From positions 3,168 through 67,167 of the forward strand of contig CAYHNZ010000001.1 in assembly GCA_964358205.1 (NCBI GenBank): a DNA stretch of 64,000 nt, in the 5' to 3' direction. Shown one piece after another: positions 23,246 through 62,820 of the stretch. The stretch is from an uncultured Candidatus Saccharibacteria bacterium. GTDB taxonomy: Bacteria > Patescibacteriota > UBA1384 > 2-12-FULL-50-11. A model generated the notes under the pieces. That model had not been told where the DNA came from. It was given only the letters and a program-made list of their open reading frames with translations, and made no database searches. How positions within the stretch are numbered: the stretch's first letter is position 1; each line of letters begins with the position of its first letter. A program made the translations under genes and the position numbers.

Positions 23246-23453
23246 TCCCGAGTCGTCTACTACGAACTGACACTTTCTGTTCCGGGATCGTCTAGCGGTA
23301 GGACTGCAGATTCTGGATCTGCCAACCTTGGTTCGAATCCAAGTCCCGGAACAAAGTGTGTCAGTGAGAAGCGAGTCCGCCAACAAGCGGACGACAATGG
23401 TAGGACGCTAGGTTCTGGTCCTAGTAACCGGGGTTCGAATCCCTGCTCGGGAA
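23246..23453 (+). other. Interrupted 'outer' tRNA-Gln(CUG)-like gene: 5' piece 23246-23259 (acceptor + D-stem + first D-loop nt) and 3' piece 23397-23453 (rest of D loop to acceptor), separated by a 137-nt insert that contains the complete tRNA-Gln
   Basis: TCCCGAG...CTCGGGA acceptor pairing; 3' piece has anticodon stem CTAGG/CCTAG, loop TTCTGGT (CUG), T arm CGGGG-TTCGAAT-CCCTG. Confidence 0.5.
23281..23351 (+). tRNA. tRNA-Gln (anticodon CUG), complete cloverleaf, no encoded CCA; flanked by 12-13-bp inverted repeats (CTGACACTTTCTG / CAAAGTGTGTCAG)
   Basis: TCCGGGA-TC-GTCT-AGCGGTA-GGAC-T-GCAGA-TTCTGGA-TCTGC-CAAC-CTTGG-TTCGAAT-CCAAG-TCCCGGA-A; close to E. coli tRNA-Gln. Confidence 0.85.
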
Positions 23454-36596: not shown

Positions 36597-36673
36597 GGCG
36601 TGTTCGTCTAGTGGCCTAGGACACCTGGTTCTCATCCAGGAGATCACGGGTTCGACTCCCGTACACGCCGCCA
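36597..36673 (+). tRNA. tRNA-Glu (anticodon CUC), complete cloverleaf with encoded CCA; flanked by a perfect 9-bp inverted repeat GCTGATACT (36579-36587) / AGTATCAGC (36678-36686)
   Basis: GGCGTGT-TC-GTCT-AGTGGCCTA-GGAC-A-CCTGG-TTCTCAT-CCAGG-AGATC-ACGGG-TTCGACT-CCCGT-ACACGCC-G-CCA; matches bacterial tRNA-Glu D-loop signature. Confidence 0.85.
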
Positions 36674-51587: not shown

Positions 51588-52299
51588 TCACTTGCCAATC
51601 TTATTCATGTTAGGTTGAGCTGTTAGCCAAGTCTCCAGGGCCTTGGACAGCGACAGTTGACCAGAGCGCTCCATGTGGGGAGTTTTGGGTCCGCCAGAGA
51701 AGACGCTGATGGGCACAATCAAAAGAGTTACCGCCGTTTTCCAGCCAGGTTCTTTCTCTGTGCTGTCGGACCTAACCTTGTCGGCTTTGAGGGAAAACTC
51801 GGATTTAGCGACATCGACGATCCAGAGGTCGACCGTACTGTGGGCTTTCGTCTTTGGCCCCAAGAAGATCCACTGGGGAACGGATGTTCCAATGGCAACG
51901 AGAGACAGCCACATAATCAACATCCAGCTTCTTGCCTAAGGCTACCAGTTGGGTGGCATCGGGCATGATGAAAGCCTCGGTGTTGAAAACAGCGCCTCCT
52001 AACATCTGCCAGCTAGCGTTTACCTTGGCCTGGTCGACGGTGACGATGCCGAGCTTCTCGAAGGCACCGAAGAGCGCCTTGTGATAGGTCTCGACGGCCT
52101 TGTTGTCAGTGCCAACTTCTCTTTCTTGTCCTTTGTCTGTTTCTTGAAACATTAAGGGCAGAACGGCGACGGTCTTGATCTTAGCGGCTTCTCCCTTAGC
52201 TGGAGTGCCGATTTTCTGGGCCGATGCCGAAGTTGCGAGCAACAGGGTGCCGAGCAACGCCACGGCCAGTGTGAAACAAGTTTTTCTGATCATAGTCAT
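51588..52299 (-). pseudogene. Frameshifted lipoprotein-like gene (paralog of 45268-45864): N-terminal 164-aa ORF and C-terminal 111-aa ORF in different frames
   Basis: ORFs 51805-52299 and 51588-51923 overlap; both halves align to successive parts of the 45268-45864 protein ('KTVAVLPL'~'KVAIVPV'; 'WIVDVAKSEF'~'VWMVDAKKKE'; 'SGGP...LSKALETWL'~'SGGG...ANGLRDLLKDWL'). Confidence 0.5.
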
Positions 52300-52373
52300 G
52301 TGAGATACGCTCCTTAAAAAGGATCAGGATTATCTTAATGCTCTTTGCAATATTAAGCAAGGGTTCTCTTGGT

Positions 52374-52440
52374 ACTTTTCTGGCAATCTGGGGGTAAGAT
52401 GTTTCCGCCGTCCGCCAGCCAGCGGAGGAGGACGGCAGAG
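52374..52440. repeat. Leader repeat copy 1 (ACTTTTCTGG.AATCTGGGGGTAAGATGTTTCCGCCG... with GC hairpin)
   Basis: Near-identical to copies at 52914 and 55961. Confidence 0.8.
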
Positions 52441-52456
52441 TCTAACCTTACTTTCG

Positions 52457-52771
52457 CTAAGCTAGTGGCAAACCGGTGCGTTTAATTTCCGTAGCGAAGA
52501 AATTTAGACGGTCGTCAAAATCCGTGCTTCGAATCGGATGAGGCTCGATCATATCGGTCTGGTCATTGCGAAGATTCATTAACCGAACTCTTTCGGCTTG
52601 ACGGTCATCGCTGAAATCCGCCGAGACGACACAAAGATCGATGTCACTGTCTATGTGTTCAGTGCCCTTGGTTCGTGAGCCGAAAATATAAGCTCGTTCC
52701 GGGTTGATGCCCGAGTTTCGAACCAGTTGCAGATAGAGTTCGGCTGTTTTTAAAGTCTCTGATTTAGTCAT
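52457..52771 (-). CDS. Minimal nucleotidyltransferase (MNT) domain protein (type VII TA antitoxin-like / Pol-beta superfamily)
   Basis: 'AYIFGSRTKGTEHIDSDIDLCVV' GS..(11)..DxD motif; 104 aa. Confidence 0.65.
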   Translation of the reverse strand: MTKSETLKTAELYLQLVRNSGINPERAYIFGSRTKGTEHIDSDIDLCVVSADFSDDRQAERVRLMNLRNDQTDMIEPHPIRSTDFDDRLNFFATEIKRTGLPLA

Positions 52772-52913
52772 TAATCTTTTGGGCGAAGGAAAGGTAGAAT
52801 TCCTCCACCACCTTCAGCCATTTTTCAGCGTACTGCTCGGTTGCTTTCAGGAAGACATCCCATTCTGTCATTTTCTAATTTGAGTTTAACAAAAGGGGTC
52901 GCCCAAAGCCAGT

Positions 52914-52984
52914 CATTTTCTGGTAATCTGGGGGTAAGATGTTTCCGCCGGCTGGCGGAGTGATTTTTGAAGGCGAAAGTTGAG
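52914..52984. repeat. Leader repeat copy 2 (contains CCGCCGGCTGGCGG hairpin and 'GAAGGCGAAAG')
   Basis: ~95% identical to copy 3 over ~70 nt. Confidence 0.8.
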
Positions 52985-53049
52985 AGGGTTGCGAATCTTC
53001 AGGGAAAAAGAGAACCGCCCCCTAACGCCTAACGGTCCTTAAGTATTGT

Positions 53050-53619
53050 CTATTTCTTCTTGCCCGTGACAAAATATAAACCACGCTGGATACCGTCATA
53101 TTTACTAGAAATTGCAGTGAAGACTTCTTCTGTAGAAAGGACTCGGAAAAAAGGCAACTCGGGGTTGCCAACAGTGAATGTGTCTTTTTCGCTGTTGTAG
53201 GCTATTAATAGTGAAAAATGTCCGTAACCTTTTTCGGAACCGTAGATACCCGTGTGATAGCGAAGGATGACGTCATAGTTCGATTCTTGTCCAAAAAGGA
53301 ATCTACTAATTAGATTCTCCCTATCCTTAGGAATAATTTGCCCCGAAATTGATAGAGGGATGCTATGGGATCGAAAAAAGTTATTTATTGAGTATTTTTT
53401 CTTCTCAATCTGGGTGCCATAACCCTCCCTGGGCTCGGAGGCAAGAAACTTAATCTGGGGGTGCTTGAACCTAGAGCGTCCTTTTTCGGGCAAACGTAAA
53501 CCCAGTTCAGCACCAATCGTCTCTTGGTCGAGAATGTCCAGCTTCCGTCGGTAGAGTATCCACTGAAGGGTGGCTGGGACGCAACAATACGGCAGTTGAT
53601 AAAATGGGCGGTAGTCCAT
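53050..53619 (-). CDS. Putative papain-like cysteine peptidase (C39-like fold)
   Basis: Candidate catalytic Cys in 'YCCVPATLQWIL' and His in 'GYGHFSLLIAY'; 189 aa. Confidence 0.35.
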   Translation of the reverse strand: MDYRPFYQLPYCCVPATLQWILYRRKLDILDQETIGAELGLRLPEKGRSRFKHPQIKFLASEPREGYGTQIEKKKYSINNFFRSHSIPLSISGQIIPKDRENLISRFLFGQESNYDVILRYHTGIYGSEKGYGHFSLLIAYNSEKDTFTVGNPELPFFRVLSTEEVFTAISSKYDGIQRGLYFVTGKKK

Positions 53620-53786
53620 ACATACGTATTATACGAAAAAGAGGGACGCTACCACGGAGGAGCGTCCCTTGTCGATGCTGGCCGAGCTTAGCCCATGTCG
53701 CCTTCGGAGCCACCTTCGCAGCTTGTCCGGCTGTTTAGTGCGCTTTGCCCCGATCGCCAATACGGGTGTCCCAAGAGGGATGCCCG

Positions 53787-54608
53787 CTATTTTATAAGAC
53801 GGCCAATTACGCAGGCCTCTTGCCCGATTTCGGTATTTGGTCGAGGGAAAATTATGTACTCGCCCTCTCTGGCTACATATTTAATCTCGCCATCAGTGGC
53901 AAAGATCTTGCCCGTTTCGAGTTTATCGAAGTTTTGGTACTCCTTGTCGAACGCGAATCGAGAGCTAGTTTTTTTAATAAAACGGTCCACGTTAATGTGT
54001 AGCCGACTCCTAAGTGTATCTTCGGGAAGTGAAGCGATGATACCGAAATAGCCCAAAAACTGCAGGATGGTTTTTTCGGCCAAGCCGATATATTTTTCTG
54101 GGTAGAAATTGGACCCACATTCGGCGCAGATGGCTATTTTATTCTGCGCGTGCATATATCCGTCGGTCCCGCCTGGTTCTGATACAGACCAACCAGAGGA
54201 AATGATCTCAAAATTAAATTTGCAGGCTAAATCAAACGACTCTTTCTCGCAGATAAGGAATGGTCGATCTTCCGGACCGTTGTAACCATGTAGATCTAGT
54301 AATGCGTCGCAGCCGTCGAGTAGTTTCATCAGCTCTCGAGCCAAGCCGTCCTCATAGACGGCTCCAGTATTTCCATTAATGAAACAACGATTGAGATTTT
54401 TTTCGGTAAAACGAACGTTCTGCTCGACAGCTTTAGGGTTAGCAATGACGAAATGAACAGTACCCGCATCAATTCGCAGGGCTCCTATTAGTTTCGTGAC
54501 AGCCAGTACGCCTGCTGGCTCATTCCCATGGATACCAGCAAAAACGGCAACGGTTCGGCCAGGTAGTTTTCCACGAACCGTCGTAATCTCAGGATTCATA
54601 GTACGCAT
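53787..54608 (-). CDS. Succinylglutamate desuccinylase/aspartoacylase (AstE/AspA, M14-like) family zinc deacylase
   Basis: 'TVAVFAGIHGNEPAGVLAV...DLHG' zinc-ligand motifs of AstE/AspA family; 273 aa. Confidence 0.6.
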   Translation of the reverse strand: MRTMNPEITTVRGKLPGRTVAVFAGIHGNEPAGVLAVTKLIGALRIDAGTVHFVIANPKAVEQNVRFTEKNLNRCFINGNTGAVYEDGLARELMKLLDGCDALLDLHGYNGPEDRPFLICEKESFDLACKFNFEIISSGWSVSEPGGTDGYMHAQNKIAICAECGSNFYPEKYIGLAEKTILQFLGYFGIIASLPEDTLRSRLHINVDRFIKKTSSRFAFDKEYQNFDKLETGKIFATDGEIKYVAREGEYIIFPRPNTEIGQEACVIGRLIK

Positions 54609-54725
54609 TCTAGCCCCTCGAGTAATTCTTTTCCAGCCCAGTACTAACGAGCTATCAAGCCCTGCTTGTGATTCCGCGCAATCTTATGCCCAAGCTCGTG
54701 GTATTCAGGTAATCTGAGAATCATA

Positions 54726-55199
54726 ATGTTACCAGCCCTCTACATAATGTGCGGCCTGCCCTACTCCGGAAAAACGGTACTCGCCAAGAAATTAAGTAAG
54801 AAATACGGCTGGAAACTGGTGGAAATCGATGGAATCAAGGCACGACATGGTTTTGCTGGCATATGGCAAGATATGAAGATGAAAGATTGGGATGAGATTT
54901 TTAGTGAATCATTCGAAGTCGTCCGAAACGAACTAGGAGCAGGTAGAAGTATTATTTATGACTCGGCTAATCTAACCAGGGAAAGCCGGGACAGACTGAA
55001 GAATATAGCGAAGGAGTCTAGTGCTGAGGCGAGACTGATTTTTCTTGATATTCCAACGGAAGAAGCCATCTCTCGATGGCGGGAGAATGAAAAAGCAAAG
55101 TTTCGACATCACCTACCGGAGTGGGCTTTGAAGGCCGCAATTAAAACATATCAGCCACCGACTACTGATGAGATGCCTGTTTCTCTTGACCTGCCTTAG
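54726..55199 (+). CDS. P-loop kinase (AAA_33/zeta-toxin-like small kinase)
   Basis: Walker A 'GLPYSGKTVLAKKL'; 157 aa. Confidence 0.55.
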   Translation: MLPALYIMCGLPYSGKTVLAKKLSKKYGWKLVEIDGIKARHGFAGIWQDMKMKDWDEIFSESFEVVRNELGAGRSIIYDSANLTRESRDRLKNIAKESSAEARLIFLDIPTEEAISRWRENEKAKFRHHLPEWALKAAIKTYQPPTTDEMPVSLDLP

Positions 55200-55218
55200 T
55201 CCTGGACAAAATCCTTTT

Positions 55219-55899
55219 TTACACCAAGGCAAGCCCTTTTTCTATGAAGACATTGATATCAGAGTAATGCGGGGTCAGCTTTTTCTGTAGATCGACTAGG
55301 TTCGGATAGTTGTGGTCGGTGTACGCGCCGGAGCGATTCCATGGCCAAAAAGTTTTCATGATGGGATCGAGGCCGGTGATGGCGAAAGCATAGACTTCCG
55401 CTAGTTTCCAAATTATTTGATCTGAAACTCCAGGATTCTTAGTGCGCATCCGCGAAAAGAAATGCGAAATGATTAGTTCGTGAGCAGTGATGCGTCGCTG
55501 TTCTCGAGCGTCTTTGTCCCAAATCCGCACCACTTTGTTACCGCCCCAGTTACTGATCCCGGGGTGGAAAAGACTGACGACACATTCGTAATGTTTGTGG
55601 GCGAGCGGAAACCTGGTTAGTTCAGCCAAGCGCTCGAAAAACTTCTGGTCAATCTCGTCCCAACCGCGTTGATACGTCCCAATAACTTCGTCGAGCTTAT
55701 TCCCGATTTCGAGATATCGCTTATTGGCGACTGTCTTGGCGAGTAATTTGTCACCATTAGCGATTTTCTTAGAGTCTTCTGCTGAAATTTTCATAGTTTC
55801 GGCGTACTCCAAAACACCTTGCTCGCTCCGCCCTTTAAGCATCACAACAATCATCTCCGTATCGTATTTTTGGTCTTTGATAAACCGCAGTAGCGACAT
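55219..55899 (-). CDS. Hypothetical protein (226 aa)
   Basis: ORF with AAGGAG RBS upstream of ATG 55899. Confidence 0.4.
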   Translation of the reverse strand: MSLLRFIKDQKYDTEMIVVMLKGRSEQGVLEYAETMKISAEDSKKIANGDKLLAKTVANKRYLEIGNKLDEVIGTYQRGWDEIDQKFFERLAELTRFPLAHKHYECVVSLFHPGISNWGGNKVVRIWDKDAREQRRITAHELIISHFFSRMRTKNPGVSDQIIWKLAEVYAFAITGLDPIMKTFWPWNRSGAYTDHNYPNLVDLQKKLTPHYSDINVFIEKGLALV

Positions 55900-55960
55900 A
55901 TAGCAATCTTACTCCTTAGGGCTTCACGGATAAACCCATTTCTTTTTAAGCCAATTCGGT

Positions 55961-56113
55961 ACTTTTCTGGTAATCTGGGGGTAAGATGTTTCCGCCGGCT
56001 GGCGGAGTCATTATTGAAGGCGAAAGTTGACTTGTCCTCCGAAGCCTCGGCGAAGGTGGGGAAAGCTGTTAACCGTTCCGCCGGCTGGCGGAGACAAGAT
56101 GGCGGGAACGGGT
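55961..56113. repeat. Leader repeat copy 3 (55961-56030) plus adjacent partial copy/hairpin CCGTTCCGCCGGCTGGCGGAG...GGCGGGAACGG (56073-56111)
   Basis: Read directly. Confidence 0.8.
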
Positions 56114-56170
56114 TAGAAGGTTCGGGAGTATGAGGGTGTAATTTTGTATTGATAAAATTAGATCACGGCT

Positions 56171-56590
56171 ATGGATACTATTAAGATATATCGAGCTAAG
56201 ACTGGGCGATGGGGCGGAACGAGCTTTGACGAACTAATTAAAAAAACTCGTCGCTTGTTTAAGGAGATTGAAAGTAATCCGAGACGAAAGCTACATATCC
56301 GTTCGGCGTATTTCAAGAAGGAGAAAATATTCTTTGATTATTTCTGGCCACACCTTAATCAAAAACCACCTCGCCAGCGCCAGAAAAGATTAGCCTACTT
56401 GGAATGTGGTATTGAGTTACTCCAAAATTCTCATCACGCTCCGACATCAAAAGCAAATCCCAATAGGAAGTCTGAACTTTTGCACCGCTTTGCGGGAGTA
56501 ACCAAAGACGACGAACTATTTTTTGTGCAAGTCAAAGAAGATACTAAAACCAAGAAAAAGTTTCTAATGTCAGTTTTTCCACCAGACTAA
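56171..56590 (+). CDS. Hypothetical protein (139 aa)
   Basis: ORF only. Confidence 0.3.
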   Translation: MDTIKIYRAKTGRWGGTSFDELIKKTRRLFKEIESNPRRKLHIRSAYFKKEKIFFDYFWPHLNQKPPRQRQKRLAYLECGIELLQNSHHAPTSKANPNRKSELLHRFAGVTKDDELFFVQVKEDTKTKKKFLMSVFPPD

Positions 56591-56655
56591 CAAAAAATCC
56601 CCCGCAAGTGAGGTATATCAACCTCGTGCCGGAGATTCTTCTTGAACCAAAGATA

Positions 56656-57789
56656 TCATTTACCTGGCAGGCTGTCAATAGTCACAGACCCCAATTTCTC
56701 GGCGACTAATTCCCAGGGGTTAGTAAAGCGGTGATTGCCAACACATTTTTGGAGCTCCCGAAAATTTTCAAAGTTACACTCGCTTTTTAGATAGTCGCCC
56801 AGATCTTTGTTGGTGCTACTTATATAGGCCAGAGTTTGTTTGCAAGAAACAGACTCCGCAAAGGCTTTTCTGAATTCACTCTCATTTTGGCAGTTGTCCT
56901 TTAGGATGATTGAACCCAGGATCAAATCTCGAGTCAGAGACGGCGGGCCGAGATTACCAGTTGCAATAATAGAATCGACACTGGAGGCTTTCTCCATTTT
57001 CTCAAGCAGAGAATCTCTGATCTCTAGGTCTTCTTCATCTTGAGAGACAATGGTTTGGTTGAGGGCTTTAATTACATCGTAGGAGGATGAGTGTTTCTCC
57101 TCCATCTCTTCTTCTTCGATGACTGAAAAAACTTTTTCGGCGATCTTTTCGGCAGTGGTGAAACCCATAAAGGCAGTGAGAATTGCCAGCTCATTATAGG
57201 TGTAATCGCCGTTTTCCCCACCATCGGAAGTGACGACTTTCACTCCGTCCAAGCTCTTTTTCGTAAAACTATCTTGGAAAATCGCGAGACCAGGCTTAAT
57301 TTCGGAAACCTTGTGGTTATTATCGCCGAAGGATCGAGAGAGCAGGGTTAACAAGATCGTGCATATGCCCGCATACGAGGCTTTGTAAAATAGGGGTAGA
57401 TTGCTAAGTTTCTCCCCGTGACTAAATGGTACATTCATTCCCATTCCACCAGACCCGGTTGTTCCAACCTGAATATAGTGAACTTCCTTCAACTTTTTCA
57501 GAACTGGATAGAGGCCTACGTGAAATTTGGTGATGTCAGTTAGATTGTCGTGTGATTTGCGGAAAAATATCGTGGCGATATTTAAGCAGTTGACGATCAC
57601 ATTTGGAGTGATTTTATCGACTATTTCTGCTAAGCTGTCGAGATTTAAAACATCAAGTTGTATGGAATCAATATCTTGTGAGCTGAACTTCTTAAGATCA
57701 GCTCCGGTTACCTCGTAACCTTTTTCCAATCCAATCTCGCAAATCTTTCTGCCAACAGATCCCGCTCCACCCAAGACCAGTATTTTCAT
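56656..57789 (-). CDS. NAD(P)-binding Rossmann-fold dehydrogenase (saccharopine-dehydrogenase-like)
   Basis: 'MKILVLGGAGSVGRKICE' N-terminal GxGxxG; 377 aa. Confidence 0.4.
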   Translation of the reverse strand: MKILVLGGAGSVGRKICEIGLEKGYEVTGADLKKFSSQDIDSIQLDVLNLDSLAEIVDKITPNVIVNCLNIATIFFRKSHDNLTDITKFHVGLYPVLKKLKEVHYIQVGTTGSGGMGMNVPFSHGEKLSNLPLFYKASYAGICTILLTLLSRSFGDNNHKVSEIKPGLAIFQDSFTKKSLDGVKVVTSDGGENGDYTYNELAILTAFMGFTTAEKIAEKVFSVIEEEEMEEKHSSSYDVIKALNQTIVSQDEEDLEIRDSLLEKMEKASSVDSIIATGNLGPPSLTRDLILGSIILKDNCQNESEFRKAFAESVSCKQTLAYISSTNKDLGDYLKSECNFENFRELQKCVGNHRFTNPWELVAEKLGSVTIDSLPGK

Positions 57790-57842
57790 CGGCCTAATTG
57801 TACATCTTGTTAGATAGGGGTAAAAATAATAAAGTCAAGGTA

Positions 57843-59312
57843 ATGAAACTAAAGACCATTACGGGGGAAGCAAAGATTCAAACCCATGAGACCGAGGGGA
57901 TAATTCCCGGGTTTCAACATGCTTTGACTTTATTCAAGCAAGCGTCAATCAATGTCCCGGCATATAAGGCTTTTTTGAAAAGTCACGGAGTGGATCCTAA
58001 AAAAATCAACACTCCAACTGACTTTTCCCGACTCCCCATAATTACCAAGGAGAATTACCTAAAGAAGTATCCGCTACAGGAATTGATGTGGCAGAGAGGA
58101 GTTAGCGACGCTCGGATGATATCGGCTAGTTCAGGGTCGAGCGGACAACCGTTTTTTTGGCCAAGAGGCAATCAAAGCGTTGAAGACTCGGTCGTGATAC
58201 TGGACGAGCTGTTAGACAAGACCTTTCAGACCAAAACCAAAGAGACACTGTGTATCAACGCCTTTGCCATGGGGACATGGATTGCCGGTACTTATATGAA
58301 TTCGGCAATGTGGCGATTGGCTGATTTAGGGCATCGGATAGTCACCATTACGCCCGGAATTACCAAAGAGGAAATTGCTCGCGAACTTGAAGTGTTGGGA
58401 CCAACTTTTCAGCAGGTTCTAATTATGGGTTATCCACCTTTCGTCAAAGATGTCGTCGATTATGCGAAAACCCGTAATATTAAACTCGCTCGACTCGATA
58501 TAAAGTGCTTATTGGCCGGTGAGAACTTTTCCGAGCAATGGCGAGACTACATTCTAGCGAGGATTGGCAAGAAGAACCAACCAGAATCAACTCTGGGGAT
58601 GTATGGAACTGCGGATGCGGGAATAGTTGGTACAGAAACACCCTTATCGATATTTATCAGAAGACTCTCTGCCGATGACCGCCGACTGTACGAAGCTCTT
58701 TTCGGTAACGACTCTATTTTGCCAACTCTGGTTCAATACAATCCCGATCTTCGTTATGCAGAAGAGATCGACGGTAAAATCATCTTCACAACCGACAACT
58801 CCTTGCCCCTGATAAGATATGAGATATTAGACGAAGGCAGAGTCTTGACACCGAGTATGGTTAATAACGTACTTGGCCGGTTTGGAAAGAGAATCCCAGC
58901 TGAAATGAAACCATTTTCTGACAACCCATACATTGCCCTCTATGGAAGACAGGATGTGGCGGCGACATTCTACGCCCTAAATATTTATCCAGAGAATGTT
59001 AAATATGGGCTAGAGATTCCAGCTCTTCAAGCAATTGTGACGGGGAAATTCGTCATTAAGGCCGAATTCGACGACACAACACAAACGCAGGCGTTAGACT
59101 TAAGTGTCGAGCTCCAGCCGGGAGTAAAACCAGACCAAAAGATCGAGAGGAAAATATTTAAAGCGGTTGTCGACAGTTTAGTGCAGAACAACAGCGAATA
59201 CAGCAAGTTATACCAGGAGATTGGCAAGAAGGCGGAGCCGATCGTGCATCTGATGGAGCAAGGGAATCCGGATTTCAAGCCAGGAATTAAGCACCGTTGG
59301 TTTAAGAAATGA
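57843..59312 (+). CDS. Adenylate-forming enzyme of the PaaK / coenzyme F390 synthetase-like family
   Basis: 'SASSGSSGQPFFWPR' (cf. PaaK SSGTTGKP); ~490 aa; start set at 57843 because 57798 would sit 8 nt from divergent gene start. Confidence 0.55.
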   Translation: MKLKTITGEAKIQTHETEGIIPGFQHALTLFKQASINVPAYKAFLKSHGVDPKKINTPTDFSRLPIITKENYLKKYPLQELMWQRGVSDARMISASSGSSGQPFFWPRGNQSVEDSVVILDELLDKTFQTKTKETLCINAFAMGTWIAGTYMNSAMWRLADLGHRIVTITPGITKEEIARELEVLGPTFQQVLIMGYPPFVKDVVDYAKTRNIKLARLDIKCLLAGENFSEQWRDYILARIGKKNQPESTLGMYGTADAGIVGTETPLSIFIRRLSADDRRLYEALFGNDSILPTLVQYNPDLRYAEEIDGKIIFTTDNSLPLIRYEILDEGRVLTPSMVNNVLGRFGKRIPAEMKPFSDNPYIALYGRQDVAATFYALNIYPENVKYGLEIPALQAIVTGKFVIKAEFDDTTQTQALDLSVELQPGVKPDQKIERKIFKAVVDSLVQNNSEYSKLYQEIGKKAEPIVHLMEQGNPDFKPGIKHRWFKK

Positions 59313-59338
59313 ACGAGGAATACGAGCCGATATTCTTC
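59268..59338 (+). repeat. Direct repeat DR1 (~71 nt) spanning the 3' end of the adenylate-forming gene and a 10-codon relic 'MNEEYEPIFF*' of the E1-like gene start
   Basis: ~88% identical to 60593-60663. Confidence 0.8.
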
Positions 59339-59350
59339 TAAATAAAACGA

Positions 59351-59920
59351 ATGAATAAGCCTCAATTACAAATAATTAATTCCAAAGTTTACAATAATAC
59401 TATCCGCCTCTGGCTGGGTCGAGACGATTATTTAAGTCACGACGAGCTCGATGAGTATTGCGTCGCGCTCAAGACAGAGTGGAACAAGGGCGGCGATACA
59501 TTTATAGAGTTAATGATAAAGTGCTTGGGATGGCCGTGGGCTGAAGATGTAGTTAAATGTTATGTCACCGGCACTCGAGCCAGCTTTTCTAGTCCGTTGA
59601 CCGTCGGGTACAAGAAAAATATTAATTTAGCGCTGAATGTATTAACTCACGAGCTTATCCATTGCTATATCAGTCAGCACATTCCCGAGCTTCGGAAGAA
59701 AATTGACGATTTCTACGCTGAATATTCGAACGAAAATCGATTGACCCAAAATCATATTATGGTTCATGCTATTCACGAATATATTTACCGTAACACAAGC
59801 AGAGTTGAAGAATTGGAAGCAGATATTAAGAGTTGCCAGTCAGCACCAGACTACGCCAAATCTTGGGAGATTGTTGGTCGAGTCGGCTATCAAGAGGTTG
59901 TAAAGAAAATAGCCCGCTGA
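59351..59920 (+). CDS. Hypothetical protein with HExxH motif ('LTHELIHCY'), possible metallopeptidase-like
   Basis: ORF; motif only. Confidence 0.3.
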   Translation: MNKPQLQIINSKVYNNTIRLWLGRDDYLSHDELDEYCVALKTEWNKGGDTFIELMIKCLGWPWAEDVVKCYVTGTRASFSSPLTVGYKKNINLALNVLTHELIHCYISQHIPELRKKIDDFYAEYSNENRLTQNHIMVHAIHEYIYRNTSRVEELEADIKSCQSAPDYAKSWEIVGRVGYQEVVKKIAR

Positions 59921-59964
59921 GATTTTGGTCTCAAGGGGCTAAGGGTGTTCGGAGCGGGTTGTTG

Positions 59965-60441
59965 CTACGCTCCCGTGCAACGACTGGTGCAACCGCCTTC
60001 GCCGCTACCACCGTCACCGCCGCATTCGCTGGGAGTGCTACAGTCACCGGCCTTGCCTTGTGGCCAGTAGATTGGATTCAGTTTGCCGAAGCGTAGGCGG
60101 AGTGCGGTCAGAGTCCGTTTGTAAGCGGACTTAGCTGGTTCATCGCTCGGAGAGTGGTGGATGAACTGGCTGAAGTGTTGCGTACAGAACTTGGCGTATT
60201 CCTGCGTGTGGAGGACGAAGCTGTGCCACATCTCGTCAATGATGAGAGATGGCGCATGTGTCTTGTCGGGCTTTTCAGCACAAACGATGAGGAATTTCTT
60301 GCACTCCTCGAACTGCTGGCGTGCTTCTGGTTCGGAAACTTCATATTTCCGACAAAAGTTCATGATGAGTAGGGGAGGAGGTTGATAAGCCATCACCTCC
60401 TCTGCGTTGACGATGTTAACGGTGCTTAATACAGTAGCCAT
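59965..60441 (-). CDS. Hypothetical protein with structured N-terminal domain and Cys/Gly-rich C-terminal tail (CSTPSECGGDGGSGEGGCTSRCTGA)
   Basis: ORF; tail composition. Confidence 0.35.
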   Translation of the reverse strand: MATVLSTVNIVNAEEVMAYQPPPLLIMNFCRKYEVSEPEARQQFEECKKFLIVCAEKPDKTHAPSLIIDEMWHSFVLHTQEYAKFCTQHFSQFIHHSPSDEPAKSAYKRTLTALRLRFGKLNPIYWPQGKAGDCSTPSECGGDGGSGEGGCTSRCTGA

Positions 60442-60592
60442 TTAGGTATCCTCGTATTTTTTCTCAAAGAAGGATCCTTGAGAAGCTCAAGATACAACTT
60501 TATTAATTCATAATCAATAGTTTAACCCCAAGTCAGCCATTTTATGCTAGTCTAAAGGCAAGATGTCGTCATTTCTAAAGGAAATTCTCTTC

Positions 60593-60663
60593 CCGGATTT
60601 TAAGCCAGGAGTTAAGCATCGTTGGTTTAAGCGATGAACGAGGAATATGAGCCGAGATTTTTT
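60593..60663 (+). repeat. Direct repeat DR2: relic 3' end of an adenylate-forming gene ('...FPDFKPGVKHRWFKR*') fused to the true start of the E1-like gene
   Basis: Aligns to 59268-59338 with ~8 mismatches. Confidence 0.8.
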
Positions 60664-61797
60664 CAGTCTCGTGAACATTCTGATGTCAAGGAGCTTATTA
60701 AGGAAGGAAAAATTCGTGAGGTTATTGATAATCTTTCAGAAGAGCTGGAGAATCTATTTCGCATAAACTTTCCCTTCATAACCCCCGCTACCCCAGAGTA
60801 CATCACTACTTTTCAGAAGTTTCTCGGTAGATATCTGAACGGGAAGAAAGAAGCTGAGGTTGGGGTTTGGGCTTACTATCCTTGGAAGCAAACTTTGGTT
60901 CACTTACCCGAAAGTGCAGACTTCTTTAAACTAAGAACTTCCAGAAACAAATTTTTAATAAATAATGAAGAACAGCAGAAGTTCTATAGCTCAAAGATAG
61001 GTATAGCTGGTCTCAGTGTTGGACTCGCAGCCGTAAACTCACTCGTGTTATCAGGCGGTGGTGGGCAAATGAGAATCGCGGATTTTGATAATCTATCCAT
61101 TACAAATTTGAATAGATTGCACTCATCGGTATGTGATTTGAACAGAAGTAAAGCAGCTATTGCCGCAAGAAAGGTTTACGAAATAAATCCTTTTCAAGTT
61201 CTCGAAGTCTTCCGGGATGGAATAACAACAAAGAACATAAGCAAGTTTTTTGGGAGGGGGAGTGATAAACTCGACATTTTTATTGAGGAGATAGATGATA
61301 TTAAGCTGAAAATAGACACGCGAATCTGGGCTAGAAAACTAAAGATACCTGTCGTTATGGCTACAGACAACGGAGATAATGCAATCATTGATGTGGAAAG
61401 ATTTGATTTGGAGCCTAATCGGAAGTTGTTTCACGGTAGAATTGAGGAATCAAAGCTCCTAAGCGTTGGGGAGAACCTTGGAATGACGGAGAGAATAAGG
61501 CTAGCTAGCGCAATCGTTGGAGCAGATATTACTCCGAGGACACGCATGTCGCTCACTATGGTGGGAACAAAAATACCAGCATGGCCCCAGTTAGGCAATG
61601 CAGCAACCCTCTCTGGTGTGGCGGTGAGCTACGTTTCAAGAAGAATACTTACGGGGTTAAGTATGCCCTCTGGTAGGTATGAAGTATCGCTTGACGAGAA
61701 ACTTGATCCCACCTACTTCAGAGGTTCATCTGTACAAGAGAGGGAAATAGACAGAAAAGAGTTCATTTTTACGCTTGGTAAAATATTCGGGAGTTAA
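60634..61797 (+). CDS. E1-like ThiF/MoeB-family adenylyltransferase with ~110-aa N-terminal extension
   Basis: 'KIGIAGLSVGLAAVNSLVLSGGGGQMRIADFDNLSITNLNRL' (GxGxxG + DxDx5NLNRQ-like). Confidence 0.7.
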   Translation: MNEEYEPRFFQSREHSDVKELIKEGKIREVIDNLSEELENLFRINFPFITPATPEYITTFQKFLGRYLNGKKEAEVGVWAYYPWKQTLVHLPESADFFKLRTSRNKFLINNEEQQKFYSSKIGIAGLSVGLAAVNSLVLSGGGGQMRIADFDNLSITNLNRLHSSVCDLNRSKAAIAARKVYEINPFQVLEVFRDGITTKNISKFFGRGSDKLDIFIEEIDDIKLKIDTRIWARKLKIPVVMATDNGDNAIIDVERFDLEPNRKLFHGRIEESKLLSVGENLGMTERIRLASAIVGADITPRTRMSLTMVGTKIPAWPQLGNAATLSGVAVSYVSRRILTGLSMPSGRYEVSLDEKLDPTYFRGSSVQEREIDRKEFIFTLGKIFGS

Positions 61798-61803
61798 TAA
61801 AAG

Positions 61804-62820
61804 ATGTCAATTATAAATCCCTGGTTGATCGAAGAGAAGGATTTCGCAGCGGCTAAAGATCTTAGGAGCCAGATAAACTTCTGGTTGAAATACGCCGTAT
61901 TAGCGGCATCTGCGCACAATACCCAACCTTGGGGCTGTATCTTTAGAGACAACTCCCTAATTGTATATAGGGACGAAGATCGAACTCTTGGAAGCGATCA
62001 AACTACTAGATTGGCTCATATAGGTATAGGAGCGTTTATCGAAAATCTATCCATCGCATCAAAAAGCTGGGGGTATGAACCCAAAATACACATTACTGCT
62101 TTCTATCCTAATGAGTTAGAGATAGCTCATATTTCATTCGAGAAGGCCGTAGAAACTACAGGGAGAGATGATCTCGAGTTGTTCAAAGCAATAACCTCTA
62201 GACACACCAACAGGGGTCTCTATGTGCCAGGAAAGCTAGATGAATCCCTACTAAATAAAATTGCAACTGACAAAGAAGGTACCGCCAAATCTTTTGTAAT
62301 TACTGAGGAAAGTGGGAGAAAACGGATCGGAGAGCTGGTAGCAAAAGGCACCGACATAGCGCTATCGCTGCCCTTTATGAAAAGAGAGTTGGCAAGTTTT
62401 ATTTATTCCTCAAGCAAGCCTAGGGAAATAGGAATGCCAATAGAGTCAATGATTCCGGGTCAACTCAAGAACTTTATAAGACCAGAAACTGCAATAAAAT
62501 ATATGAATCCCGAATCGCTTGCTAGGGAAAATTTGAAAAAATATTCCCAAGCCCCCGCATTAGTAATAGTGGGAACTTATGAGGATGACCCTACGGCATG
62601 GATTGATGCGGGCAGACTCATGCAACGAACCTTACTTAGAGCAGCTGCAAAGGGCTACAGCCATGATATAGCAGCGGGACCTATTGAGATACCTACACTC
62701 CTTCCCATTCTCAGACAAGAGATACAACCCGATACAAGGCCTCAATTACTATTCAGAATCGGTCGAGCCGAAAAGTCTTCGTTATCAGTTAGCTCTGGTA
62801 GGAAAGCCGTAATAGTTTAA
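61804..62820 (+). CDS. Nitroreductase-family protein with tandem/extended nitroreductase fold (SagB-type dehydrogenase-like)
   Basis: 'AASAHNTQPW' nitroreductase signature; second half 'TSRHTNRGLYV'; 338 aa. Confidence 0.55.
   Translation: MSIINPWLIEEKDFAAAKDLRSQINFWLKYAVLAASAHNTQPWGCIFRDNSLIVYRDEDRTLGSDQTTRLAHIGIGAFIENLSIASKSWGYEPKIHITAFYPNELEIAHISFEKAVETTGRDDLELFKAITSRHTNRGLYVPGKLDESLLNKIATDKEGTAKSFVITEESGRKRIGELVAKGTDIALSLPFMKRELASFIYSSSKPREIGMPIESMIPGQLKNFIRPETAIKYMNPESLARENLKKYSQAPALVIVGTYEDDPTAWIDAGRLMQRTLLRAAAKGYSHDIAAGPIEIPTLLPILRQEIQPDTRPQLLFRIGRAEKSSLSVSSGRKAVIV

What the first reader, a model, noticed from the sequence alone, without database searches (positions are those of the whole stretch)
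52300..56600. Accessory islet of leader-repeat-driven genes: MNT nucleotidyltransferase, papain/C39-like peptidase, AstE/AspA-family deacylase, P-loop kinase and unknowns
These genes are short, of mixed orientation and separated by the repeat elements. A 35-codon ORF (52876-52772, MTEWDVFLKATEQYAEKWLKVVEEFYLSFAQKIND) overlaps the MNT start in ATGA fashion where a HEPN partner would normally be expected. The MNT therefore appears orphaned or paired with a degenerate partner. A peptidase, a deacylase and a kinase in combination would fit a peptide/amide processing or immunity function linked to the neighbouring modification cluster, or they could be leftover toxin-antitoxin and defence fragments.
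Basis: inference. Interest (0 to 1): 0.5.

Follow-up and report, generated by a model that had tools for sequence, protein, structure and literature searches.

The report
Decayed HEPN–MNT module in a variable gene islet
This stretch of an uncultured groundwater bacterium's genome is a patchwork of unrelated accessory genes, and the puzzling 35-codon ORF is the leftover of a deleted HEPN toxin gene beside its surviving MNT partner, which is an ordinary kind of gene decay.

Summary
They are an MNT nucleotidyltransferase, a papain-fold (C39/phytochelatin-synthase-like) cysteine peptidase, an AstE/AspA-family zinc deacylase and an AAA_33 P-loop kinase. There are also two families without a Pfam domain: a zincin-fold protein (226 aa) and a 139-aa protein common in Patescibacteria.

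The main result concerns the 35-codon ORF. In 43 of 80 related loci the MNT gene is directly preceded by a ~130-aa PF05168 HEPN gene. The mini-ORF matches only the last ~28 residues of that protein. A close relative (L101) keeps the same start but only the HEPN N-terminus. The mini-ORF is therefore an internally deleted HEPN pseudogene, and the MNT is an orphaned antitoxin-type enzyme.

Gene order is not conserved for any islet gene. Relatives share the flanking backbone and the 226-aa gene but carry different cargo on both sides of it. I found no support for a joint peptide-processing or immunity function.

The repeat is real. Its 28-nt core lies 44–95 nt upstream of start codons of several unrelated genes in four related genomes. 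That suggests a lineage-specific regulatory element whose mechanism I could not resolve.

Overall the finding is ordinary, with modest interest.

The parts
52457..52771 (-). Minimal nucleotidyltransferase (MNT), 104 aa. It is intact and is the antitoxin-type partner of HEPN.
   Evidence: PF18765 scores 37 bits and PF01909 36 bits, both above their cut-offs. The MntA equivalog NF047752 scores 37 bits against a cut-off of 60. The catalytic G31-S32, D43, D45 and E76 are invariant among 23 relatives. Compared with L101, 35 codons differ synonymously and 11 non-synonymously.
52764..52871 (-). 35-codon mini-ORF. It is an internally deleted remnant of a PF05168 HEPN gene: the ancestral start plus ~6 codons, fused in frame to the last ~28 codons.
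   Evidence: It is the only hit of the HEPN-partner HMM among 2,361 six-frame ORFs of the window (HMM positions 100-127 of 128, E=0.0047; next best 7.3). tblastn hits fall directly upstream of the MNT in L019 and L020, at 56-57% identity. One search shows the alignment. In L101 the homologous position keeps HMM positions 3-28 instead.
52916..53026 (+). Repeat copy 2. As written on the + strand it has the 28-nt core at 52916-52943, the GC hairpin at 52943-52960 and a tail to ~53026. On the - strand the core lies 44 nt upstream of the HEPN-remnant start.
52376..52443 (+). Repeat copy 1. The core is at 52376-52403, followed by a longer and different GC hairpin. On the - strand the core lies 77 nt upstream of the 164-aa gene start (52299).
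55963..56030 (+). Repeat copy 3. The core is at 55963-55990 and the hairpin at 55990-56007. On the - strand the core lies 64 nt upstream of the 226-aa gene. A second copy of the hairpin alone lies at 56076-56093, in the divergent region before the 139-aa gene.
54702..54716 (-). Degenerate copy of the repeat core (CAGATTACCTGAATA), 93 nt upstream of the AstE-like start in gene sense. It also overlaps a TAATCT hexamer 10 nt before the kinase ATG on the other strand.
   Evidence: (family D3).
53050..53619 (-). 189-aa stand-alone papain-fold cysteine peptidase, C39-like / phytochelatin-synthase-like.
   Evidence: The search found 71 homologues; the named ones are from Patescibacteria (CPR) and DPANN-type archaea. 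In the 66-sequence alignment Q8 is present in 57, C13 and H134 in all 66, and position 152 is D in 61 and N in 5, the window protein having N. The family profile hits Nostoc Alr0975 at E=1.3e-5 with the catalytic His and Asp aligned. 28 of 66 members hit PF13529.
53642..53669 (-). Terminator-like hairpin (8-bp stem AGGGACGC/GCGTCCCT, then CTTTTT) between the AstE-like and 189-aa genes. It is followed by TATAAT ending 8 nt before the 189-aa ATG.
   Evidence: Read directly from the sequence. The consensus scan did not list it because its loop is 12 nt.
53787..54608 (-). AstE/AspA-family zinc deacylase / carboxypeptidase-like protein, 273 aa.
   Evidence: PF24827 scores 67.8 bits and PF04952 35.8 bits, both above cut-off. 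PDB succinylglutamate desuccinylases match at E 7.6e-11 to 6e-9. The HGNE and DLHGY metal motifs are present. It falls below the AstE and aspartoacylase equivalog cut-offs.
54726..55199 (+). AAA_33 P-loop kinase, 157 aa, similar to polynucleotide kinase, gluconokinase and PSTK; substrate unknown.
   Evidence: PF13671 scores 64.2 bits and KTI12 45.5 bits. phrog_505 'polynucleotide kinase' matches at E=4e-12. The Walker A motif GLPYSGKT is present.
55219..55899 (-). 226-aa zincin-fold protein with an atypical H140-E141-x4-H146 motif and conserved E168. It is a syntenic backbone gene of this lineage, not islet cargo.
56171..56590 (+). 139-aa member of a family of conserved ~136-139-aa proteins whose named members are all Patescibacteria. 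The fold has no confident solved relative.

Best explanation
The window comes from an uncultured groundwater bacterium, probably a Patescibacteria (CPR) lineage related to Candidatus Uhrbacteria. The region 52.3-56.6 kb is not one system. It is the end of a variable slot of the chromosome, holding independent accessory transcription units, next to one conserved backbone gene (the 226-aa zincin-fold protein) and the start of a second variable slot (the 139-aa gene onward).

Within the first slot lies a decayed HEPN-MNT toxin-antitoxin module. In this subfamily a ~130-aa PF05168 HEPN gene precedes the MNT gene and overlaps its start. Here an in-frame internal deletion removed roughly codons 7-99 of HEPN. 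What remains is the original start, about 6 codons and the last ~28 codons. This is the 35-codon mini-ORF, still overlapping the MNT start.

The remnant lacks the helices carrying the conserved ARYDDYK region, so I infer it cannot act as a toxin. The MNT keeps its catalytic residues and looks to be under purifying selection. By analogy with MntA, which inactivates HepT by AMPylation, I infer it persists as an orphan antitoxin-type nucleotidyltransferase. It may do nothing, or it may neutralise HEPN proteins encoded elsewhere.

The papain-fold peptidase, the AstE/AspA-type zinc deacylase and the AAA_33 kinase are separate single-gene units whose substrates cannot be read from context.

Several - strand units share a lineage-specific 28-nt sequence, AACATCTTACCCCCAGATTACCAGAAAA, 44-95 nt upstream of their start codons. 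It is often preceded by a GC hairpin. I infer it is a common cis-regulatory element, either an operator or part of a promoter or leader.
For: Origin:
- Identical contigs come from 0.1-0.2 um filter fractions of Hainich well H43.
- The nearest genome hit is a Cand. Uhrbacteria MAG.
- Homologues that carry names are Patescibacteria or DPANN-type archaea.

HEPN remnant:
- Of 80 loci with MNT relatives, 43 have a full HEPN ORF directly upstream, 4 have it split, 11 have partial remnants and 14 have none.
- The upstream partner is PF05168 HEPN, with E from 1e-12 to 1e-21.
- The partner HMM hits only the mini-ORF in the whole window, at positions 100-127, E=0.0047.
- The alignment shows VFLKATEQYAEKWLKVVEEFYL against AFYKKATLAYAEQWMKLGEEIYL.
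- L101, whose MNT is 90% identical in protein, has the same upstream core, spacer and first 20 nt of the remnant (85% identical). It then retains HEPN positions 3-28 instead.

MNT integrity.

No conserved gene order.

Variable slots:
- L099 and the contig carrying P0145 share the backbone genes with the window: DUF7379, the acyltransferase and the 226-aa gene. In L099 these are 61-74% identical in protein, and IleRS (67%) and the HisKA_7TM kinase (about 58%) also match.
- Both hold radical-SAM, methyltransferase or aminotransferase genes where the window holds the islet genes.

Upstream element: seven aligned instances in four genomes, always in the same orientation relative to the downstream start.
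Against: - The mini-ORF/HEPN match is short, 28 residues and 14 bits. It is convincing only together with its exact syntenic position and the L101 comparison.
- Some of the MNT conservation between the window and L101 may date from before HEPN was lost, so selection on the orphan MNT is not proven.
- Contexts were sampled for only 3-5 homologues per family, and for none of the AstE-like or kinase homologues. A weak recurrent association could have been missed. Examples seen once each: a P-loop kinase plus a 2H phosphoesterase next to a 139-aa homologue in L013, and a C39_2 gene next to one in L018.
- The regulatory role of the 28-nt core is inferred from position only. No canonical -35/-10 pair fits it.
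- One instance, L007a, is 220 nt from the nearest start.
Confidence: 0.75

Rival explanations
1. The peptidase, deacylase, kinase and the two unknowns form one functional module for peptide or amide processing, or for self-immunity. It would serve the neighbouring ThiF / nitroreductase / PaaK-like ligase / epimerase cluster.
For: - The genes lie close to that cluster.
- Three of the proteins are hydrolase-like.
- In one relative, the contig carrying P0145, the 226-aa homologue is flanked on both sides by radical-SAM genes, with methyltransferase and acetyltransferase genes on one side. In L099 a radical-SAM gene lies on one side and an aminotransferase on the other.
Against: - No two of these families are neighbours in any other locus examined.
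- The genes are separate units in mixed orientation. A terminator-like hairpin lies between the AstE-like and 189-aa genes.
- Syntenic relatives keep the 226-aa gene but none of the others.
Confidence: 0.07
2. The mini-ORF is a genuine small protein, a new short partner or regulator of the MNT, rather than a pseudogene remnant.
For: - It has an ATG and an intact 35-codon frame, and it overlaps the MNT start by 8 nt in a way that would allow translational coupling.
- The deletion that made it is in frame.
Against: - In L101 the same position has a different, frame-broken remnant (positions 3-28). The DNA under the rest of the mini-ORF is only 39% alignable, against 80% for the MNT.
- Pfam, NCBIfam, PADLOC and PHROGs give no hit.
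- Other loci show varied partial remnants, not a conserved 35-aa product.
Confidence: 0.05
3. The repeats are recombination or mobility sites of a cassette-like system. They would move single genes between related genomes and so create the islet.
For: - The 139-aa gene and its flank are 89% identical in DNA between the window and the Uhrbacteria MAG. A backbone protein is only 69% identical between the two.
- L007 carries remnants of the 3' ends of the window's epimerase and ligase genes. The epimerase remnant lies beside the 139-aa homologue and the ligase remnant beside a partial repeat core.
- Repeat copies sit at borders of the variable slots.
Against: - The precomputed Pfam annotation of the genes from about 43 kb to the 3' end of the window lists no integrase, transposase or recombinase.
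- The core always has the same orientation and a promoter-like distance to a downstream start, including before a backbone gene conserved in relatives.
- I recognised no terminal inverted repeats or target duplications.
- The pattern is absent from the viral contigs.
Confidence: 0.13

Closest known systems
[quoted passage not shown]
   Same: - The MNT is a ~100-aa minimal nucleotidyltransferase with the GS...DxD motif.
- Relatives carry an adjacent, overlapping ~130-aa HEPN gene.
- Solo toxin and antitoxin genes are common in the largest TA families generally (PMC2701414).
   Different: - The HEPN gene here is reduced to a 35-codon remnant.
- In this subfamily HEPN is 5' of MNT (43 of 80 loci). 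[quoted passage not shown]
- The MNT scores below the NCBIfam MntA equivalog cut-off (37 against 60 bits).
- The partner HEPN consensus shows ARYDDYK rather than a clear Rx4-6H motif.
Papain-fold peptidases of the C39-like (PF13529) and phytochelatin-synthase-like (PF05023; Nostoc Alr0975/NsPCS) groups
   Same: - The Gln/Cys/His/Asp(Asn) constellation is conserved.
- The His-to-Asp spacing of 18 residues matches the aligned NsPCS segment.
- The family profile hits Alr0975 at E=1.3e-5.
   Different: - It is a stand-alone 189-aa protein with no ABC-transporter fusion or neighbour.
- The window protein itself gives no Pfam hit at E<=0.1.
- The PDB match covers only the C-terminal half.
AstE/AspA family (succinylglutamate desuccinylase / aspartoacylase; M14-like zinc hydrolases)
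   Same: Both family domains score above the Pfam cut-offs, the zinc-ligand motifs are present, and solved AstE structures match.
   Different: - It is short (273 aa against ~320-350 aa).
- It scores far below the equivalog cut-offs for AstE, aspartoacylase, MpaA and DoeB.
- There is no arginine-catabolic or ectoine context.
Zincin / gluzincin metallopeptidases (M1 catalytic domain, M30, Wss1/SprT-like minimal zincins)
   Same: - It has a conserved His-Glu on the long helix and a conserved Glu 28 residues later.
   Different: - The motif is HExxxxH, not HExxH.
- No Pfam, NCBIfam or PDB sequence match was found.
RelE/HigB/CdiA-type BECR-fold RNase toxins
   Same: The 139-aa model has helices packed on a 4-stranded antiparallel sheet. 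RelE, HigB and CdiA toxins appear among its best weak matches.
   Different: - No adjacent antitoxin-like gene appears in the five contexts examined.
- The family keeps a constant length and has named members in several Patescibacteria groups, as a housekeeping-like gene would.

Membership tests
HEPN-MNT type VII toxin-antitoxin | Minimal nucleotidyltransferase with the GSx(9-10)DxD catalytic motif | tested here: met
   FGSRTKGTEHIDSDIDL is present. G31, S32, D43 and D45 are invariant in 23 relatives. PF18765 and PF01909 score above cut-off.
HEPN-MNT type VII toxin-antitoxin | Adjacent intact HEPN-domain toxin gene | tested here: not met
   Only a 35-codon remnant is present, matching HMM positions 100-127 of 128. 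There is no other HEPN hit in six frames of the 64-kb window.
HEPN-MNT type VII toxin-antitoxin | Score above the NCBIfam MntA equivalog cut-off (NF047752) | tested here: not met
   37.1 bits against a cut-off of 60.
HEPN-MNT type VII toxin-antitoxin | Rx4-6H RNase motif in the HEPN partner | tested here: inconclusive
   The consensus of 26 full-length partners in relatives shows ARYDDYK, with no His 4-6 residues after the Arg. Conserved His residues lie elsewhere (GHL, HDL). PMC3710099 notes MNT-linked HEPN families that lack the motif.
HEPN-MNT type VII toxin-antitoxin | MNT AMPylates and neutralises the HEPN toxin | not testable with these tools
   This needs biochemistry.
Peptidase C39-like / papain fold (PF13529, PF05023) | Sequence-model match | tested here: inconclusive
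   The window protein gives no hit at E<=0.1. 28 of 66 family members hit PF13529 and 3 hit PF05023 at E<=0.01. The family profile matches NsPCS in the PDB at E=1.3e-5.
Peptidase C39-like / papain fold (PF13529, PF05023) | Catalytic Cys and His with Asp/Asn, plus an oxyanion Gln | tested here: met
   Q8 is present in 57 of 66, C13 and H134 in all 66, and position 152 is D in 61 and N in 5.
Peptidase C39 proper (bacteriocin-processing) | Fusion to, or neighbourhood with, an ABC exporter and a double-glycine leader substrate | tested here: not met
   The protein is a stand-alone 189 aa. No ABC transporter is adjacent in the window or in 3 other contexts.
AstE/AspA family | Catalytic and hybrid-barrel domains, and zinc ligands | tested here: met
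   PF24827 scores 67.8 bits and PF04952 35.8 bits, each against a cut-off of 25. HGNE and DLHGY are present.
AstE or aspartoacylase orthologue | Score above the equivalog cut-off | tested here: not met
   73.7 against 170, 56.6 against 180, and 55.3 against 305.
AAA_33 / polynucleotide-kinase-like P-loop kinases | PF13671 match and Walker A motif | tested here: met
   64.2 bits against a cut-off of 27. GLPYSGKT is present. All specific equivalogs score far below cut-off.
Zincin metallopeptidases | Zincin catalytic-domain fold | tested here: met
   [not shown]
Zincin metallopeptidases | HExxH motif | tested here: not met
   The conserved motif is H140-E141-L-I-I-S-H146, that is HExxxxH.
RelE/BECR RNase toxins | Significant fold match and a linked antitoxin | tested here: not met
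   [not shown]
Integron-type cassette array | Integrase, uniform cassette orientation and attC-type sites | tested here: not met
   No integrase appears among the annotated genes of the contig stretch read. Orientation is mixed. The repeat lies upstream of starts, not at 3' ends.

The most novel reading that the evidence does not exclude
The 28-nt core AACATCTTACCCCCAGATTACCAGAAAA contains a TTACC-N6-TTACC direct repeat and is often preceded by a GC hairpin. It could be the operator or promoter element of a lineage-specific regulon in Uhrbacteria-like Patescibacteria. That regulon would co-control otherwise unrelated genes: the HEPN-MNT module, the HExxxxH zincin-fold protein, the 164-aa gene, DUF7379 and the AstE-like gene. 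The element may also serve as homology for swapping cargo genes between related genomes.
Probability: 0.3. Interest if true: 0.45.

Novelty: new member of a known kind. Interest (0 to 1): 0.3.

Why it matters
- It settles an ambiguous mini-ORF as a pseudogene remnant. Annotators should not call it a gene or a new antitoxin partner.
- It documents, with two separate deletions in close relatives and about 15 degraded cases among 80 loci, that HEPN is repeatedly lost while the MNT is kept in this subfamily. This bears on how type VII TA modules decay and on what orphan MNTs do.
- It provides high-confidence models for two domain-less families found mainly in Patescibacteria. It also points to a possible shared cis-regulatory element in a group whose transcription signals, to my knowledge, have hardly been studied.
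- None of this is surprising enough to change current views.

Tried and rejected
1. Rfam gave nothing at the repeats or elsewhere in the region, apart from a noise hit.
2. I considered that the repeat encodes a small leaderless peptide (MFPPAGGV...). I rejected this because the stop and frame are not conserved, and the module-B-only copy in L007 is read in another frame.
3. I considered the repeat as a + strand promoter plus terminator, or a structured sRNA.
   - Fold z-scores on the + strand are unremarkable for copies 1 and 2 and the L007 copy. Only copy 3 is significant, and that is caused by its duplicated hairpin.
   - The consensus scan found no more terminators than the shuffles did.
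   - Two of the three copies have no + strand gene downstream.
4. I first thought the HEPN deletion breakpoint abutted repeat copy 2. The L101 comparison rejected this. The mini-ORF start is the ancestral HEPN start, and the deletion is internal.
5. Exact-pattern scans for the repeat found nothing in the viral contigs or the metagenome collection. They found one locus in the GTDB representative genomes.
6. A 23-sequence MNT alignment was too divergent for the search for related loci. A 5-sequence alignment worked.
7. The afdb50 fold library was unavailable.
8. PADLOC and PHROGs added nothing beyond PDC-S09/PDC-M05A hits for the MNT and a polynucleotide-kinase phrog for the kinase.
9. Canonical sigma-70 -35/-10 pairs could not be fitted to the 28-nt core by eye.
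10. A literature search for Patescibacteria (CPR) promoter motifs returned nothing relevant.

Full report
**Observation**

- MNT, 52457-52771(-), 104 aa.
- A 35-codon ORF with exactly the quoted peptide.
- A 189-aa ORF, 53050-53619(-).
- A 273-aa ORF, 53787-54608(-).
- A 157-aa ORF, 54726-55199(+).
- A 226-aa ORF, 55219-55899(-).
- A 139-aa ORF, 56171-56590(+).

The mini-ORF lies at 52764-52871(-), not at 52876-52772. It overlaps the MNT start by 8 nt (ATGACTAA). Public gene calls on identical contigs do not include it.

The repeat is real. A 28-mer occurs three times against 0.00 expected, and its hairpin core five times against 0.07 expected. It fills only some of the intergenic gaps.

**Origin**

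Identical contigs come from 0.1-0.2 um filter fractions of Hainich groundwater well H43. The only GTDB representative genome containing the repeat 28-mer is a Candidatus Uhrbacteria MAG (L007). Homologues of the unknown proteins that carry names are Patescibacteria or DPANN-type archaea. I infer a Patescibacteria (CPR) genome related to Uhrbacteria.

**The mini-ORF and the MNT**

The MNT hits PF18765 and PF01909 above cut-off. It stays below the NCBIfam MntA equivalog cut-off. A search of 1.84 billion representative proteins gave 643 relatives at E<=0.001. The best 150 are mostly 100-110 aa long, and none is more than about 50% identical.

Scanning the metagenome collection with a 5-sequence MNT alignment returned 80 loci. 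tblastn of the mini-ORF against them produced weak hits that all fall directly upstream of the MNT gene. Examples are L020 (56% over 18 aa) and L019 (57% over 21 aa).

Extracting the upstream ORFs showed why. Most loci carry a ~128-135-aa gene that ends overlapping the MNT start. That gene is a PF05168 HEPN domain protein, with E from 1e-12 to 1e-21.

I built an HMM from 26 full-length partners. It gave these results:
- Among all 2,361 six-frame ORFs of the 64-kb window it hits only the mini-ORF, at HMM positions 100-127 of 128. E is 0.0047, and the next best ORF has E=7.3.
- The alignment shows VFLKATEQYAEKWLKVVEEFYL against, for example, AFYKKATLAYAEQWMKLGEEIYL. This stretch starts just after the family's conserved ARYDDYK stretch.
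- Among the 80 loci, 43 have a full HEPN ORF, 4 have it split by a frameshift or stop, 11 have partial remnants (2 at contig edges), 14 have none and 8 are too short to judge.

A 979-nt contig, L101, carries an MNT 90% identical in protein. The two differ at 35 codons synonymously and at 11 non-synonymously. It has the same layout upstream:
- The repeat core is 89% identical.
- The 44-nt spacer is 75% identical.
- The first 20 nt of the remnant are 85% identical.
- After that the sequences stop aligning (39%) until the MNT start.

The L101 remnant matches HEPN positions 3-28 (E=8.4e-5). The mini-ORF's ATG is therefore the ancestral HEPN start. The window copy is an in-frame internal deletion of roughly codons 7-99. 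At least two separate deletions destroyed HEPN in these two lineages, while the MNT stayed intact with its catalytic G31-S32, D43, D45 and E76.

From the published mechanism, MntA neutralises HepT by AMPylation (PMC7641770), and HEPN is the toxin (PMC3710099). I infer that this is a toxin-less remnant with an orphan antitoxin-type enzyme. Solo toxin and antitoxin genes are common in TA families (PMC2701414).

**The other genes**

189-aa protein:
- It gives no Pfam hit itself, but it has 71 homologues.
- In a 66-sequence alignment C13 and H134 are invariant, Q8 is present in 57, and position 152 is D in 61 and N in 5.
- The family profile hits the Nostoc phytochelatin-synthase-like papain-fold enzyme Alr0975 at E=1.3e-5, with the catalytic His and Asp aligned.
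- 28 of 66 members hit PF13529 Peptidase_C39_2.
It is not a bacteriocin-type C39, because it has no ABC exporter.

AstE/AspA protein: both family domains score above cut-off, the zinc motifs are present, and solved succinylglutamate desuccinylases match. It is far below every equivalog cut-off.

Kinase: it is an AAA_33 P-loop kinase with a Walker A motif and polynucleotide-kinase-like affinities.

226-aa protein:
- It has 38 homologues and no Pfam domain.
- Its conserved motif is HExxxxH, with a conserved Glu 28 residues later.

139-aa protein:
- It has 69 homologues of constant length. The named ones come from several Patescibacteria groups.
- The model has pLDDT 93.8.
- No solved structure matches convincingly. 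RelE/HigB/CdiA-type toxins appear only at noise level.

**Is it one system?**

No two islet families are neighbours in any other locus examined:
- Contexts of three 189-aa homologues.
- Contexts of five 139-aa homologues.
- Contexts of three 226-aa homologues.

Two relatives show the backbone. L099 shares with the window:
- IleRS, 67% identical.
- DUF7379, 61%.
- The acyltransferase, 70%.
- The 226-aa gene, 74%.
- The HisKA_7TM kinase, about 58%.

The contig carrying P0145 shares the acyltransferase, DUF7379 and 226-aa arrangement.

Between the acyltransferase and the 226-aa gene the window has about 8.6 kb. This segment holds pilin-like genes, LemA, a 571-aa gene, the 164-aa gene, the HEPN remnant and MNT, the peptidase, the AstE-like gene and the kinase. 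L099 has one radical-SAM gene there. The other relative has two radical-SAM genes and two unknowns.

On the other side of the 226-aa gene the cargo also differs. The 226-aa gene is therefore backbone. The rest of the finding lies in two variable slots.

**The repeat**

Written on the + strand, it has two parts. The first is a core, TTTTCTGGTAATCTGGGGGTAAGATGTT. The second is a GC hairpin (CCGCC-N4-GGCGG) followed by a tail.

In L007 it lies upstream of a DUF2268 zincin gene and a 141-aa homologue of the window's 139-aa gene. That homologue is 94% identical in protein and 89% in DNA.

I rejected reading it as a + strand leader, a small peptide or an sRNA. Aligning seven instances from four genomes in the opposite orientation gives a consistent picture. 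The 28-nt core AACATCTTACCCCCAGATTACCAGAAAA lies upstream of these start codons:
- The HEPN-remnant/MNT unit in the window and in L101, at 44 nt.
- The 226-aa gene in the window, at 64 nt. The L099 homologue has a degenerate copy at about 88 nt.
- The 164-aa gene, at 77 nt.
- DUF7379 in L099, at 63 nt.
- The AstE-like gene, a degenerate copy at 93 nt.

The L007 copy is 220 nt from the nearest such start. The hairpin upstream of the core is variable or absent in L099 and L101.

The core contains TTACC-N6-TTACC. In L101 the half-sites are kept while the spacer differs. I could not fit a canonical promoter to it. A shared operator or promoter element is the best inference, and it is unproven.

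The high DNA identity of the 139-aa segment to L007, and the gene-end remnants in L007, leave room for a role in recombination.

**Verdict**

That reading can now be stated precisely: an internally deleted PF05168 HEPN gene. The proposed joint peptide-processing or immunity function has no support. This is an ordinary variable region with a decayed TA module. The shared upstream element and two structurally modelled domain-less families are minor leads.

Noticed in passing
L019-L098 (80 metagenome loci with MNT relatives): In this MNT subfamily the PF05168 HEPN gene is 5' of the MNT gene and overlaps its start, in 43 of 80 loci. [quoted passage not shown] Two loci, L024 and L094, also have a second HEPN gene downstream of the MNT.
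   Followed up: partly
L023, L033, L036, L039/L041, L047/L048, L049, L052, L056, L059, L062, L064: HEPN decays repeatedly next to an intact MNT. The forms seen are C-terminal-only remnants, internal deletions (L052, L064) and frameshifted copies. That is about 15 of the roughly 72 loci that can be assessed.
   Followed up: partly
window 52916-52943, 52376-52403, 55963-55990, 54702-54716; L099 9394-9467; L101 362-406; L007 3528-3623: A 28-nt core of the repeat contains a TTACC-N6-TTACC direct repeat, with 11-bp spacing between the half-sites. In L101 the half-sites are conserved while the spacer varies. This is reminiscent of response-regulator binding sites.
   Followed up: partly
L007 2063-2146 and 7727-7811, against window 56591-56737 and 59270-59356: The Uhrbacteria MAG keeps short remnants of the 3' ends of the window's 377-aa epimerase-like and 504-aa PaaK-like ligase genes. 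The epimerase remnant lies beside the 139-aa homologue and the ligase remnant beside a partial repeat core. It looks as if the modification cluster was deleted there.
   Followed up: partly
window 56656-62820: The neighbouring cluster holds an epimerase-like protein with a Beta_methylindole_red_C domain, a PaaK-like ligase, a 189-aa unknown, a UCP032817-like protein, ThiF and a nitroreductase-like protein. It occupies the second variable slot and is absent from the syntenic relatives (L099 and the contig carrying P0145).
   Followed up: no
L013 5001-6780: In a Saccharimonadales genome the 139-aa homologue is followed by a P-loop NTPase/kinase-like gene (AAA_18/Zeta_toxin-like, below the Pfam cut-offs) and a 2H-phosphoesterase (DUF1045 / 2'-5' RNA ligase-like) gene. 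This looks like an RNA-repair trio. It was not seen in the other contexts.
   Followed up: partly
L018 2740-4417: In one Parcubacteria contig the 139-aa homologue directly follows a VanZ plus Peptidase_C39_2 fusion gene. A reverse-transcriptase gene lies 2 kb downstream.
   Followed up: no
window 53620-53677 (- strand): The 189-aa peptidase gene has TATAAT ending 8 nt before its ATG and no Shine-Dalgarno sequence, which suggests a nearly leaderless mRNA. A hairpin followed by a T-run lies just upstream and would terminate the AstE-like transcript.
   Followed up: no
L100 5001-6277: A distant 226-aa homologue (44% identity) is followed by a 215-aa gene with a weak Peptidase_MA_2 hit. This may be a paralogous zincin pair.
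   Followed up: no
window 51805-52299 and L099 11454-11765: The 164-aa protein lies just outside the finding. It is 45% identical to the gene next to DUF7379 in L099, which points to a lineage-specific paralogue family.
   Followed up: no
window 7043-19036: A single 3,997-aa ORF lies on the + strand. Two tRNA genes lie at 23281-23351 and 36597-36670.
   Followed up: no
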